Positions 31,201 to 37,200 of a stretch of 64,000 bases of DNA are shown in pieces. The stretch spans positions 1,120,001 through 1,184,000 of the forward strand of contig OZ244160.1 of the NCBI GenBank assembly GCA_965216325.1, written 5' to 3'. Within the stretch, counting starts at the first letter, position 1. Every line of letters starts with the position of its first letter. This stretch comes from Coraliomargarita sp. (lineage in GTDB: Bacteria; Verrucomicrobiota; Verrucomicrobiia; Opitutales; Coraliomargaritaceae). Position numbers: made by a program.

Positions 31201-34200
31201 GCCAAGCACTGCTGGACGCTGGCTGGAACGGCAACGCAGATACCTTGAACTTTCAAGTTTACACCGTTCGCGATGGTATCGACAACAGTGGCCCGGGCCT
31301 CGGTGACATTGGCGGACGTAGTGACATTCGTGATACGATCTACGATGACTTTATCGCCTCTGCTTATTTCAGGGACCAAAGCAGCATTGGCGGTGATAAG
31401 AGCGTTCTCTACAGCTGGTTTAGTCGTAGTGGCGCGAATGATCGTGGCAAGCGCGCTAAAGTGGCCTTGCTGACTCATGGCAACCAACCAATCCGTTCCG
31501 CGAATGAAATGCACCTGCGTATCAACGATGGTTCCGGTGCTGGCTACTACCGAATGGTCGATGCCCATGAAGCCTTTAATCGTCCTGTTAATCTACACAT
31601 TACGCCCACACTTGCATCCGCCCTACAATGGGCAAAGGTCGATCCTGCTGTCAGTAAACCATGGTTGGATGGCCCCACACTGAACAGCCGTATCAGTGGA
31701 CTATTGCTTTCCGATAATGCAATGCTGTTTGGCACTACCTTTGGCGACCAAGTCGTGCCATTTGCGCCGACCAGCTTTACTCAAGATAGTGTCGATTTAG
31801 CCGATGAAGTGTTAACGTCCGTTTACAGCACTGCTCCATCGAGCACAGTCTTTTGGCCAGCCGAGCGTGTTGTCGATGATGGCGTGCTGGCAACTGTTCA
31901 GGCCATGGGCTACAGCCACACGGTTGTGGATCAAATGCGCCATTTCTTCAAATGGTTTGGCCGCACTGAAGCACTCGGCCAAGCCGGCTATCAGATCAAC
32001 ACCGTCAACAATGTTGGCCTGTTCCCTATCCATGACTTCGCGAGCACCTTCCGTTTCGAGAATCACGACAGTGGTCTGAACTTCCCGTTGCGCGAACTGC
32101 TCAACCGCCGTGCACGCAGTGGCACTCAGGACCAAGTGCTGAGTCTGCTCAGTGACTGGGAAGACTTCCGCACTGGATCGCAAGCGGATGCCTATGACCT
32201 TAATCTACGCTGGTTGGCCAACCGTCCATGGATTGAACTGGTCACCTTGGATGAAGTGGCGGGTGGTGAAATAGATCTTTCGCAACCAGCCGATGGACTT
32301 GGCGACACCTGGGGCACGGTTGACCGGGGGAATGGACAAAGCCTACAGCGAACCGCGAAGGACTTCATTGATCACTCCACTCAGGAAGATTACGGTAATT
32401 GGTATAATGGCCAAATAGGTCGCGAGGAAGGCCTCGAAGGTAAAATCTTTGAGATCCGGTCTGGCGCTCCCCTGCCAGAAAAGTTTGGCACGGTTGGTGT
32501 CGATGGGATCGCCGACGATGCATGGAAAGAAGTCGATGGCATTAGTAACAATGGCAGTGGCCAAGGAAAGCTCGGACGTTCGACAGCGCACGCAGCCATG
32601 TTTGTTACCGCGTTCCATGATCAACAGAACTTCGACCTCAGTAAGTTCAGCACGGGTGCGTATATCTATCCAGACACCGACTTCAACAACCTCGCAGGCT
32701 TCTCCAAGCTCGCACAGTCGCAAATGCGCTTTGCGGCACTTTATAAGCGAGTCGATGCATGGGCCAGTAGCCCTCCAGCAAATGCAGTGACTAGCGCTGA
32801 GGATGTCGATTTCGATGGTGAGAATGAATACCTGCTCTACAATGCGACCGCCTTTGCAGTCTTCGAAGCCAGTGGTGGGCGCTGTGTCGCAGCCTTTGCA
32901 CGTAACCCTGCCACAGGTAGTGTCAGCCAAATCATCGGCACGCAGCCAACCCATGCAGGTAGTGAAACTGAAGACGAAGGCACACTCAACGTAGACGGTG
33001 GTGCTATTGGCGCACGCCGCACCTCCGCCTTTAAGGATTGGTTCGCCGATGGCACAGCCGGGGGCACGTCTCAGTATGTCAACGCACTTTACGAAGTCGT
33101 GGCTAGTGGCAGTAACGGTTGGGTGTTCATTGCACCCGGAGGTCACATCGTAAAGACAATCACTCTTTCGGATACCGATCCTGAACTACAGGCCGCCTAT
33201 AACCTGCCAAACCAGGAAGTTGATAAGCTCTACATCCGCCATGGTCTCTCCCCGAACCTTTGGAATCTGATTCGCCGCGGCCACTATGATCTCGACCCTC
33301 TGGTGGATGATACCACGAACCGACAGATCCGACTCTTAAATCGCGGCGAGGGCGAACCCGTCGGCGCAACCTTAACTTACGATGCGAATGCCGAGCGCCA
33401 GAACAGTGCAGTCGATGATGATCCGGTCGGTGGCATCGAATGGGATGCGCCCAATATGCGTAATCAGGCCCTCGTCGAACAAGTCGAAATGACCAATGTC
33501 GACGGACAAACCAGTTTCTCGATCACTCTAACTCTGGAGAACGGCAACACGGATAATGACGGCGATGCCCTACCCAACTGGTGGGAACGCGACAACGGTC
33601 TGGATCCGGATTCCTCTTCAGGCGATGACGGCGCGAGTGGCAACGGTGACGGCGACCCCTTCAACCAGCTTGAAGAATACGTGCTCGGACTCGATCCGAA
33701 TGTTGCCGAGTTTAACGGTCTACCAAAGGGGCTCATTGCGGCGACAGGAACGGGTGCGTTCACTGTAACTTTCCCAGTGCTGGCGGGTCGCAGCTACCAA
33801 GTCTGGTATGTCGACGACCTCACCGACACTTGGCAAGTAGCCGGCGCGCCATTTGCCGCCACCAGCGATGATGCCGCCTATGTCTGGACCGACGATGGCA
33901 GCAATACCAGTCCTAACCCAAGCACCATTGATAACCGTTTCTACAAGATCGAAATTACCCGCCCTTAGAATGAAGAAACTTCTTTCACTCCCGATCACGA
34001 CACTTCTTGCCGCTAGCTCATTGTCAGCGATCGGCTATCTTGAGGTGCGTGCGCCTGGCTATGATTTCCGTAGTGCGGAGTATTCGACCTCACATGTTTA
34101 CATCGATGAAGTTGCTGGCACAACTGCAGACATTGAGGTGCTTTGGACTTTGACCGACTTTAGCAATATTACAGATGTTGAGGTGTATACTAACTTAAAC

Positions 34201-37200
34201 CGTCGCGACCTTGCACGCACCGACAAGAACAGTGACGGATACGCGGATGGGATTCAACCAATCAACGGGAATACCATTACTGACTCAGCTGCAGATACAG
34301 ATACCAGCACTGGCCACTACTTTGCTCCGCTCAACATGACTGATGGTGACAATAATGGCATCTGGGAGCTAACGATTCCTGCCTCTAAGACCGGTGCTTA
34401 TCGTCTTACGGCACGTTTTAAAACCAGTAACGCAATTGCTGAGAACAATAACGATCCCAATAACTGGATTTGGTATGGCCTGCGTGACCATGCAGTCGTA
34501 GTCGCGCCAGTCGACTCCCGCGACGTCCAGCTCTATGTGATGAATGTATTCAACGTCGAAGCAGATGGAGACACCTTCTTTGATCGCTCAACCTTTGAAG
34601 ACCTTCATGACGCAGCAGACGCGGCACATAACTTTGAAGGGGGCGGCAGTCGTTGGAATCTGGACTATATGAAAGGACTCGGCATGAACTGGCTCTGGTT
34701 CCAGCCGATTCACCCAAATGGCATTGATGGTCGCGAGCCAGTCGCTGGCTATGGTAACGGCGGCCCTCTCTATGACCCAGGCAGCCCCTATGCGGTGAAG
34801 AACTTCTTTGAAGTTAATGAGCTGATGACCGTCGACTATGATGGCAGCAACACACTGGCGCAGAACCGAGCTGCTTCCATGGCCGCGTTTCAAGAATTTG
34901 CCGCAGCAGCGGATGCGAAAGACATCGGTATTATGCTGGATGCTCCATTCAATCACACGGCATTCGATGTTGAGCTCGGTCAACAAGGAGTCGACCTCTT
35001 CCAGCGCGACGGTGAAACTTGGGATCCCTACGATGAGATTCGTAATCGCGAAGCACGCTTTTTCTCATCGAGCTCGAATTATGGAAACCGCGCGTCGTCT
35101 GCGGGAGACATCGCCGCTGGGCCCGATCGCTACGACTTTGGCAAATGGAATGATGTTAAAGATGTCTTCTTTGGCCGTTACGATGCGCTCGTTGAAGCAG
35201 ATGTAGAGCCTGAACGATCCAGCTATACCAACGAAGGTGATTGGTTTGACTATAGCGATAGCGATTGGACCAACAACGACTTCACGCAAGGTGGTTCACA
35301 ATGGAATGTGACCCGTCGGGTCTGGGACTACTTTGCAGAATATGCAGTGCACTGGTTGGATAAGACACGCCCTGCAGGTCAAAACCGCAACTCGACATCA
35401 ACTGACGGCGATTCCGCGGCGCGCTATGCATGGGATGACCGCGGGATCGATGGTCTGCGCTGCGACTTTGGCCAGGGGCTTCCACCTCAAGCTTGGGAAT
35501 ACATCATTAATGTTGCCCGTAGCCATAAGTGGAACTTCGTCATGATGAGCGAGTCACTGGACGGCGGCGCAGTAACTTACCGTTCAAGTCGACACTTTGA
35601 AATCTTGAACGAAAACATTGTCTTCCCGTTAAAGTCGGCAGGGAGCAATCAGGACTATCGAAACATCTTCGAGGGTCGTCGTAGCGCCTATGGTCAAGCT
35701 TTGGTATTGGCGAATACCACGTCTCATGACGAAGCAAACTATGCGGATCCATGGCAAGCGCTGGTCCGAAACGCTGCAGTTGGTATGATCGATTCGGCTT
35801 CGCTGATCTTTCCCGGCCAAGAACTAGGTATAGTAACTGATGACAAGGGGACTAGTGATACGAGTGATGATTATAATTTTGGTTATCAGCATTATGAAGT
35901 GAACTTCGGTAAAAATATCCCTCACTTCAAACGCTGGAACTCGATGATACCCATTTGGAACGACACTAACTTTGGTAATGATCAGCTGTATCCCGTGTAT
36001 TCCGGCGTTCAATCTGCCCGTCAATCGAGCCCTGCGCTGCGCAGTTCCAATCGTTGGTTTATCGATGGGGATGGCGGTAATAACCAGATATTTGCGGCTG
36101 CGAAATATGAGGCCGCGAATGCCTCACCAGCCTCATCTGACGTTGTATTAGGATTTGTGAATCTTGACCGAAGCAATACGCAGAGCGATAATTTCAAAAT
36201 CCCAGCGGGGTTGGCACCACTTCTCGGCATACAAGACGGTCGAACTTATAACGTTAAGAATATCGCAGCCTACACCGCCCAAGTCGCCAACCGACGTGAG
36301 CTTTGGCTTTGGGGTGCTGGCATCACTGGCGCAAATCTAAAAGCCAACGGGTTCTTTGTCAGCCTCTACAAGGTGCCAATAGCAAATAGCGACTGGCTGG
36401 GTGAGCCTTACGAAGCCCAATACCTGAAGCTGTATGACGTCACTCCACCACCTGCGCCATCTCAGCCTGTAAATAGCACGGGCAAGAACTACGTAATGGG
36501 CAACCGCATTACCTTTGAGTGGTCCGCGTCAGTGTCGAATACCGCAGACGATGTTATCACCAGTTACCGTTTGATGATCAAGCGGGATGGCTCAAACGAA
36601 ACTGTCTTTGATGAAAATGTCGGCAACGTAACCAGCTACGAGTATACCGGCTCGCATGGAGATAATCTCTACGCAGAAGTCTATCCGATCAGTGCCGCTG
36701 AAATACAGGGCACAGTGAGCTCTGCGAGTAGCGCGGTGTTGATGATCGACCCCGATGCTGACAACGACCAAGATGGAGCGACAAATGGCGACGAAGACAT
36801 CGCGGGCACAGATTTCAACGACCCCAATTCGAAGTTGGAGATTGTTCAAAGTGAACTCACGATTACTGATCAATTCACGATTTCTTGGCCAAGTGTCGTC
36901 GGTATTACCTATGGTGTCGAATCTAAGGATACCCTCCTCGCGCTTTCTTGGCACACGGAAGCTACCGGCATTAGTGGCACCGGCAGTGTGCTGCAATGGA
37001 CAGATCCGGATCCCATCAATACGGAGACGCTATTACACAAGTTCTACCGTGTAATCGTCGAATAGCCGGTATGACCCGACGCAGACTTCGTCAATTGCCC
37101 TCCTGTGTGTCCTTCGCCTTTGTTTCGTGGGCGTTTTGTGCATCTGTATGCGGGCAGAGCACCCTCACACCAGATTGGGCCAAGGATACCATCTGGTATC

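What a model noticed while it worked through the whole genome (the two positions that open the first line are those of the whole stretch)
33651..37068. Unclassified ~100-aa C-terminal module (TSP3-like Ca motif + FnIII-like sandwich ending FYR-V) on 12 unrelated exported [...]
Twelve proteins of 562-4570 aa with signal-peptide-like N-termini and unrelated cargo end in the same ~100-aa module: D-G-x-x-N-x-x-E-x3-G-T-D-P, then a beta-sandwich ending F-Y/F-R-V-x-V. The cargo includes amylases g01013/14, esterase g02113, metalloprotease g01830, FG-GAP g01842, cadherin-repeat g01664/66, g00425/26, g01169, g01533 and g01697. The module has no Pfam or NCBIfam model and is a candidate C-terminal secretion or surface-sorting domain, analogous in position and fold class to the T9SS CTD.
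Evidence so far: An iterated HMM converges on 13 proteins: in 12 the module ends 0-1 aa from the C-terminus (E 1e-16 to 1e-30); in g00162 it follows the signal peptide. No family over cut-off in NCBIfam or Pfam for 9 tested; only weak TSP3_bac and Amuc_1099 on the first 20-45 aa. ESM Atlas neighbours are unnamed, commonest Verrucomicrobiota. Model pLDDT 80, six strands; best matches are FnIII-like, Z 7.5, rmsd 2.2 over 66 residues. The profile finds 19,715 cluster representatives at E<=0.001; of the best 150, 135 have a full copy and 108 of those have one within 10 aa of the C-terminus. Present in 14 of 31 phylum genomes, 1-13 copies each, 4 of 4 family genomes. The 4570-aa carrier g01697 lies directly behin [...]
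(Added by a program. Inside this text positions count along the whole contig: contig position 1,120,001 is position 1 of the stretch shown here. "Call 12" and the like, gene names such as g00115 and contig names such as C1 are that model's own, and its searches are not shown. The text may have been shortened before it was handed on; [...] marks where a part breaks off. The agent that wrote the report below was given it as the finding of a first reader that could run no searches.)

Follow-up and report, generated by a model that had tools for sequence, protein, structure and literature searches.

The report
Verrucomicrobial C-terminal surface-targeting domain
Many large exported enzymes and adhesins of Verrucomicrobiota, including a gut Akkermansia mucin sulfatase known to reach the cell surface by an unknown route, end in the same small unnamed beta-sandwich, which is probably the address label that gets them there.

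Summary
The module is real. Both window amylases end in it. The genome has 15 carriers (12 firm): 14 C-terminal, 1 N-terminal. The conserved unit is a ~75-aa six-stranded sandwich (FnIII strands A-F, no G); the TSP3-like motif before it is generic and optional. The sandwich occurs in 76 of 151 phylum genomes, 30 or more times in 19; 57 of the 60 best outside hits close their protein. No Pfam/NCBIfam model covers it.

It also ends the Akkermansia muciniphila 1414-aa sulfatase that I identify as Amuc0953. Dey et al. 2026 showed that enzyme is surface-bound despite a periplasmic signal peptide, while its paralogue without the end domain stays inside; they likened the domain to a T9SS signal. One homologous sulfatase carries a T9SS CTD in that place instead.

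So a surface-localisation role is likely (about 0.75; export signal 0.5, anchor 0.25). It was proposed in print for one protein; the phylum-wide family was not found in my searches. The machine is unidentified: neither the Amuc_1098 operon nor GspK-type T2SS tracks the domain fully, and the secretin adjacency is mostly local. The scan reported this module before on other DNA (e1-3190170).

The parts
25611..33968 (+). Carrier 1 (g01013): 2785-aa exported amylase-type protein (GH13 domain, weak GH57-like region, internal TSP3-like repeats) ending in the module
   Evidence: ORF; Pfam; signal-peptide-like N-terminus read from the sequence
33636..33737 (+). TSP3-like acidic motif, short helix and linker/first strand region of carrier 1's module (optional part)
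   Evidence: full-module profile A3 starts at 33636
33738..33965 (+). Beta-sandwich of carrier 1, ending FYKIEITRP-stop
   Evidence: sandwich profile A4, 58 bits; E 4e-14 with a profile lacking this genome
33970..37065 (+). Carrier 2 (g01014): 1031-aa exported GH13-like protein ending in the module; starts 1 base after carrier 1's stop
   Evidence: 118 of 120 homologues keep a C-terminal sandwich
36754..36828 (+). TSP3-like motif D-x-D-x-D-G-x-x-N-x-x-E-x3-G-T-D with helix (optional part) of carrier 2
   Evidence: missing in 10 shorter orthologues that keep the sandwich
36829..37062 (+). Six-stranded FnIII-like sandwich (strands A-F, no G) of carrier 2, ending FYRVIVE-stop: the conserved unit
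   Evidence: AlphaFold2 pLDDT 95.4, six strands; structural matches cover only the first 70-77 residues of 90-97-aa FnIII domains

Best explanation
The ~75-aa sandwich is a folded export signal of Verrucomicrobiota. Step 1 (shown by sequence): cargo has an ordinary cleavable signal peptide and reaches the periplasm by Sec. Step 2 (inferred): the folded sandwich, usually the last domain, is recognised by an outer-membrane translocation machine, most likely one of the phylum's secretin-based (T2SS/type IV pilus-like) systems, possibly different ones in different lineages. The conserved beta3-beta4 loop and the exposed last strand (FYRVxV, whose usual neighbour strand G is missing) are the candidate contact surfaces. 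Step 3 (shown for one carrier in print, inferred for the rest): the cargo stays bound at the cell surface. The preceding TSP3-like motif is an optional, probably Ca-binding spacer. Many unrelated cargoes share one machine, as with T9SS CTDs.
For: Position: 14 of 15 carriers here, 57 of the 60 best hits in other genomes and 54 of 62 sandwich-bearing loci of a GTDB scan have it at the very end; 50 of the 60 pass a crude signal-peptide test. Retention: 118 of 120 homologues of g01014 keep it, including 10 that lost the upstream domain and the TSP3 motif. Exclusivity: none of 18 PEP-CTERM-like proteins is a carrier and no carrier has a lipobox by pattern. Anchor swapping: among 94 homologues of the sulfatase, 65 end in the module, 1 in a T9SS CTD (PF18962) and 4 in another shared tail; carriers hold cargo parts known from sortase-, T9SS- and T5SS/PEP-CTERM-sorted proteins. 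Experiment in print: Amuc0953 (SPI signal) gives the extracellular activity and is cell-bound, Amuc0451 is intracellular (PMC13524802); the 1414-aa A. muciniphila sulfatase cluster ends in the module (E 8e-7 with a profile holding no Akkermansia sequence) and the 689-777-aa paralogues are not among the module hits. All 58 genomes with 3 or more type-A copies have GspK; the 6 genomes without any secretin hit have no module. Precedent: an Fn3 loop is a T2SS signal in PelI/Pel3 (PMC7949064), and PelI Fn3 is among the tied best structural matches (Z 7.4, rmsd 2.3 over 68).
Against: No deletion or grafting experiment exists; Amuc0953 also differs from Amuc0451 by its N-terminal beta-helix and an Ig/BACON domain. 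No single machine fits: five Akkermansia-type genomes with 1-6 modules have no GspK hit; 8 module-rich genomes lack Amuc_1101 at E<=1e-30; secretins are in 145 of 151 genomes, so their presence says little. Internal, N-terminal and tandem copies (up to 10) exist: 58 of 86 sandwich-bearing top representatives have two or more, a set biased towards repeats by summed scores. 10 of 16 ORFs of 1500 aa or more here, some clearly exported, lack it. Fold scores are middling (no Z>=8). GspK and the module may both simply be lost in streamlined gut lineages.
Confidence: 0.5

Rival explanations
1. The sandwich is a surface anchor, not an export signal: cargo crosses the outer membrane by determinants elsewhere and the domain then binds non-covalently to LPS, capsule, an outer-membrane protein or the PEP-CTERM layer.
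For: Amuc0953 activity is cell-bound with none in the medium, and the carriers have no lipobox, barrel or transmembrane tail to hold them. Tandem and N-terminal copies suit a binding module. No single machine co-occurs. PEP-CTERM genes often flank carriers.
Against: It does not by itself explain how an SPI protein gets out while its module-less paralogue does not; single-copy strictly terminal placement dominates, unlike SLH- or LysM-type anchors, which are usually repeated (recalled).
Confidence: 0.25
2. A generic truncated FnIII module (capping, spacer, substrate or Ca-dependent adhesion) that spread by domain shuffling among proteins that are exported for other reasons.
For: FnIII domains are common accessory parts of bacterial hydrolases; the profile weakly hits a clostridial Fn3 protein (E 0.008); internal and tandem copies exist; many exported proteins lack it.
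Against: Near-obligate terminal position, phylum restriction (7 of 8 records named outside Verrucomicrobiota match only the TSP3 motif), retention when neighbouring domains are lost, replacement by a T9SS CTD.
Confidence: 0.18
3. It is a diverged true T9SS CTD served by a cryptic T9SS-related machine.
For: Same sheet topology for beta1-beta6 and a conserved beta3-beta4 loop; AF3-based resemblance reported by Dey et al.; weak PorV-like hits in one of 5 genomes.
Against: Six strands, lacking the last strand that T9SS needs; 0 of 69 members hit TIGR04183 or PF18962 at E<=0.1; no PorV hit in 4 of 5 genomes, including this one.
Confidence: 0.07

Closest known systems
T9SS type A C-terminal domain (TIGR04183 / PF18962)
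   Same: Small terminal beta-sandwich on unrelated Sec-exported cargo, many-to-one; strands 1-6 in the same 3+4 arrangement; occupies the same slot on a homologous sulfatase.
   Different: Six strands, not seven; no profile match; PorV not found in 4 of 5 genomes; can sit N-terminally or in tandem; no sign of a cleavage/attachment step tested.
Amuc0953 final CTD (Dey et al. 2026, PMC13524802; preprint 10.1101/2025.09.11.675649)
   Same: By my mapping it is this domain; the authors proposed a T9SS-comparable export system.
   Different: In the passages read they treat it in Amuc0953 and its Akkermansia homologues only; no family, no phylum-wide survey, no machine.
Fn3 domain of PelI/Pel3, which carries a T2SS signal (PMC7949064)
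   Same: FnIII fold (Z 7.4, tied with other FnIII domains); signal in the C-C' loop, where this family has conserved residues.
   Different: Seven strands, N-terminal, limited to one enzyme group, part of a composite signal.
Bacterial TSP3 repeat (PF18884) and Amuc_1099 family (NF042425)
   Same: Match the first 20-45 residues in 45 and 53 of 69 members.
   Different: Do not cover the sandwich; the motif is optional and occurs before many other C-termini.
PEP-CTERM/exosortase sorting
   Same: C-terminal, many-to-one, present in the same genomes.
   Different: No transmembrane helix or basic tail; never on the same protein here (0 of 18).

Membership tests
T9SS CTD | Match to TIGR04183/PF18962 (or type B) profiles | tested here: not met
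   0 of 69 members at E<=0.1
T9SS CTD | Seven-stranded sandwich with a terminal beta7 motif | tested here: not met
   two models have six strands and end on the sixth; definition from PMC11285876 passages
T9SS CTD | Structural match to solved CTDs | tested here: inconclusive
   only the best 50 rows are shown, all other folds of middling Z
T9SS CTD | T9SS genes in the genome: PorV | tested here: not met
   no hit in 4 of 5 genomes, below cut-off in the fifth; control rang
T9SS CTD | T9SS genes in the genome: SprA/Sov | tested here: inconclusive
   0 of 5, but no control genome rang
FnIII | A-B-E / C'-C-F-G topology with seven strands | tested here: not met
   A-F align (Z up to 7.4), G is absent: FnIII-derived, truncated
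C-terminal sorting domain (general) | Terminal position on unrelated signal-peptide proteins, paralogous expansion | tested here: met
C-terminal sorting domain (general) | Interchangeable with other sorting signals on homologous cargo | tested here: met
   1 T9SS CTD and 4 other tails among 94 sulfatase homologues; thin
C-terminal sorting domain (general) | A dedicated partner gene with the same distribution | tested here: inconclusive
   three candidates tested, none fits; no whole-proteome profile possible
C-terminal sorting domain (general) | Necessary and sufficient for export | not testable with these tools
   needs deletion and graft experiments
PEP-CTERM or other sortase-type tail | Motif, transmembrane helix, basic tail | tested here: not met
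   sequences; pattern test

The most novel reading that the evidence does not exclude
Verrucomicrobiota have their own CTD-directed protein secretion and surface-display pathway, parallel to T9SS but built from other parts, in which an FnIII domain lacking strand G is captured by strand donation from a machine component or surface receptor; it would account for the export of tens of large CAZymes, sulfatases, proteases and adhesins per genome, including Akkermansia's surface mucin sulfatase.
Probability: 0.3. Interest if true: 0.9.

Novelty: new variant of a known kind. Interest (0 to 1): 0.68.

Why it matters
How Verrucomicrobiota move large polysaccharide-degrading enzymes across the outer membrane is open; Dey et al. 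state that an unknown mechanism must export Amuc0953. Linking that protein's end domain to a phylum-wide family gives a sequence profile that predicts the surface proteome of marine, soil and gut members, and makes the question testable now in A. muciniphila, which has transposon mutants, a whole-cell assay and a natural negative control (Amuc0451). It could also serve for surface display in this probiotic.

Tried and rejected
Amuc_1098-1102 operon as obligate machine: Amuc_1101-like in 133 of 151 genomes, no association with the module (50 of 58 vs 83 of 93); family f18 has no close Amuc_1098-like secretin (2 genomes checked, best 136 bits vs 303-310 in f33). Secretin adjacency: seen in 9 of 12 hand-picked loci (two of the nine are diverged modules judged by eye, one lies two genes on), but in only 2 of 36 Amuc-type secretins of a broader set, plus 1 within three genes; 4 of 40 stretches held no secretin. 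Second PilM-secretin cluster: no close orthologue in 7 of 14 module-bearing genomes of the family. GspK-type T2SS as sole machine: looked perfect with the type-A profile (58 of 58) until a type-B profile showed 5-6 copies in four Akkermansia-type genomes without GspK. Conserved neighbour gene: none beyond orthologous loci in 160 loci. Complex prediction of the module with Amuc_1099-like and secretin N-terminal parts: no answer, score 0.00; not evidence either way. No T9SS CTD among the rows shown by three structural searches; hhalign to one type A and five type B tails gave 1.5% or less, with little power. A homologue search with the 569-aa carrier found only itself. A PDB sequence search with the type-B profile found nothing. 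No localisation data for the Akkermansia GH18 carrier in five papers' passages. Paper searches returned nothing.
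Full report
Observation. The window holds two adjacent exported amylase-type genes, 25611-33968 (2785 aa) and 33970-37065 (1031 aa), each ending in the module. 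An HMM iterated from these two ends over all six-frame ORFs of the genome converged on 11 proteins; four near misses were added by eye. A sandwich profile built only from other genomes recovers 11 of the 15 at E<1e-3 and one at 0.021, with no hit in reversed decoys. Fourteen are C-terminal and one follows the signal peptide. Cargo is unrelated: GH13, esterase, M10 protease, FG-GAP, delta-60 propeller, cadherin-like and Ig repeats, FnIII.

Anatomy. The module has two parts. The acidic D-x-D-x-D-G...E...G-T-D-P motif matches TSP3_bac in 45 and Amuc_1099 in 53 of 69 members at E<=0.1. It is missing in 3 of 15 carriers here and in 10 shorter g01014 orthologues, some named Pontiella, that still end in the sandwich. 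It also occurs alone: 64 of the 150 best library hits have no sandwich, so counts made with the whole module overstate the family. The ~75-aa sandwich has no Pfam or NCBIfam model. AlphaFold2 gives six strands both for the window module (pLDDT 95.4) and for an Akkermansia-type sandwich alone (90.5). Structural matches are FnIII domains at Z up to 7.4, none at 8, and cover only their first 70-77 residues (3mpc 3-77 of 96; 4lpu 1-75 of 93). The domain is therefore FnIII strands A-F, ending where strand G would start; that the F edge is left open is my inference, as I could not inspect coordinates. Conserved positions are W, G-R-x-Y, L and W around the third loop, and F-Y-R-V-x-V.

Range and position. 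Of the 60 best hits outside this genome, 57 end within 12 residues of the stop and 50 pass a crude signal-peptide test. In a GTDB scan, 62 of 80 loci had the sandwich, 54 of them terminal; 7 of 8 records named outside Verrucomicrobiota matched only the acidic motif, and the eighth is a MAG contig I suspect is misbinned. That scan finds close relatives only, so other phyla are not excluded. Tandem, internal and N-terminal copies exist.

The link to experiment. Five genomes of a genus scoring over the Amuc_1101 cut-off or near it carry 1-6 type-B modules, on a GH18, a sialidase-like protein, a sulfatase and others. The sulfatase of G084 matches PDB 9s8x over residues 37-1296 and 9s8a over 514-1206; I take these to be Amuc0953 and Amuc0451 from their size and architecture, not from a code read in the paper. 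The 2492-member A. muciniphila cluster of 1414 aa agrees with the printed 9s8x start at 33 of 35 residues (compared by eye; the exact motif test in the script did not match) and ends in the module, E 8e-7 with a profile free of Akkermansia sequences. Dey et al. (PMC13524802; abstract, passages and section 8 read) report that Amuc0953 has an SPI signal yet supplies the extracellular activity, that none is in the medium, that Amuc0451 is intracellular, and that the unresolved last domain resembles a T9SS CTD in an AF3 model, so that a comparable system may exist. The preprint says the same (passages). I searched 4 of 19 supplementary files without a hit; their Supplementary Table 3 and Extended Data Fig. 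8 were not seen and may say more about the domain. The 689-777-aa paralogues in three genomes are not among the module hits. Among 94 homologues, 65 end in the module by HMM, about ten more look like diverged copies by eye, one ends in PF18962 and four share another tail.

The machine. This genome has three secretins: a T2SS cluster with GspD, K and G, a PilM-like cluster, and an Amuc_1102-1098-like operon, all below NCBIfam cut-offs, directly before the 4570-aa carrier. The Amuc_1101-like gene does not track the module. The second cluster lacks a close orthologue in 7 of 14 family genomes. GspK is in all 58 genomes with three or more type-A copies, but not in the five Akkermansia-type genomes, which have two secretins each; kin are not independent, so I give no weight to the p-value. 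Carriers follow secretin genes in several hand-picked loci of three operon types but in only 2 of 36 of a broader Amuc-type set. PorV was not found in 4 of 5 genomes. A secretin route is therefore plausible, not shown.

Mechanism and odds. Export signal 0.5, surface anchor 0.25, generic module 0.18, cryptic T9SS 0.07. Precedents: an Fn3 loop acts as a T2SS signal in PelI/Pel3 (PMC7949064, abstract and passages); T9SS CTDs are seven-stranded and need their last strand and beta3-beta4 loop (PMC11285876, passages); C-terminal strand complementation holds adhesins on type IV filament tips (PMC12918778, abstract only). Strand donation to the missing-G edge is my speculation.

Novelty. It works like a T9SS CTD but fails the membership tests I could run. 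The idea is in print for one protein and its Akkermansia homologues. Six searches of an open-licence library showed no description of the phylum-wide family; subscription papers are not covered. Other papers seen as passages: PMC3048395 (names Amuc_0953 and Amuc_2164 as the two BACON proteins), PMC4960237, PMC11790493, PMC9415379, PMC12834350, PMC8966484 and 10.64898/2025.12.30.696933; none described the domain in what I read. That the GH18 carrier is Amuc_2164 is inferred from GH18 plus BACON. An earlier scan report on another genome (e1-3190170) describes what appears to be the same module; I read it after my main results and count it as no support.

Noticed in passing
window 15906-38834: Starch-use cluster: a 1577-aa GH13/CBM48 protein with a signal peptide but no module (15906-20639, -), a regulator-like gene (24371-25420, -; LacI type by recall), the two carriers and a 612-aa GH13; the order is kept in several other genomes.
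   Followed up: partly
L014:3011-11209 (-): 2733-aa RCC1/CARDB protein behind the second secretin ends in TSP3-like repeats only, while its orthologues in G063 and G135 end in a diverged sandwich; it may be truncated here.
   Followed up: partly
L002:935-14662 (+): The 4570-aa carrier scores 57 bits on TIGR04183 (cut-off 23) through internal stretches, so automatic annotation could call it a T9SS substrate.
   Followed up: no
L003:6734-7768 (+) and L003:4429-6165 (-): The carrier with an N-terminal sandwich is transcribed divergently from a GspE/PilB-type ATPase gene.
   Followed up: no
P0358, P0360, P0366, P0373: Four sulfatase homologues share a different, apparently unnamed C-terminal domain in the module's place; I recall it from Planctomycetota, not checked.
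   Followed up: no
L011-L012: Cluster of a 2983-aa exported protein, a 906-aa carrier, a PPIase, a 4435-aa carrier and an outer-membrane barrel gene.
   Followed up: no
L195-L234: The gene before the Amuc-type secretin carries the same TSP3-like motif in 21 of 36 loci, but not in this genome's family.
   Followed up: partly
L099, L106, L107, L108: In two other families a PilMNOPQ-like operon is directly followed by a ~1900-aa carrier (subtilase in the two scanned).
   Followed up: partly
L097, L103, L104, L105, L008: PEP-CTERM-like genes often lie next to carriers.
   Followed up: no
G137 C58:41014-42069: Weak, nearly full-length PorV-like match (36 bits, cut-off 90) in a module-rich genome.
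   Followed up: no
L170: A full module on a contig labelled Bifidobacterium MAG; likely misbinned.
   Followed up: no
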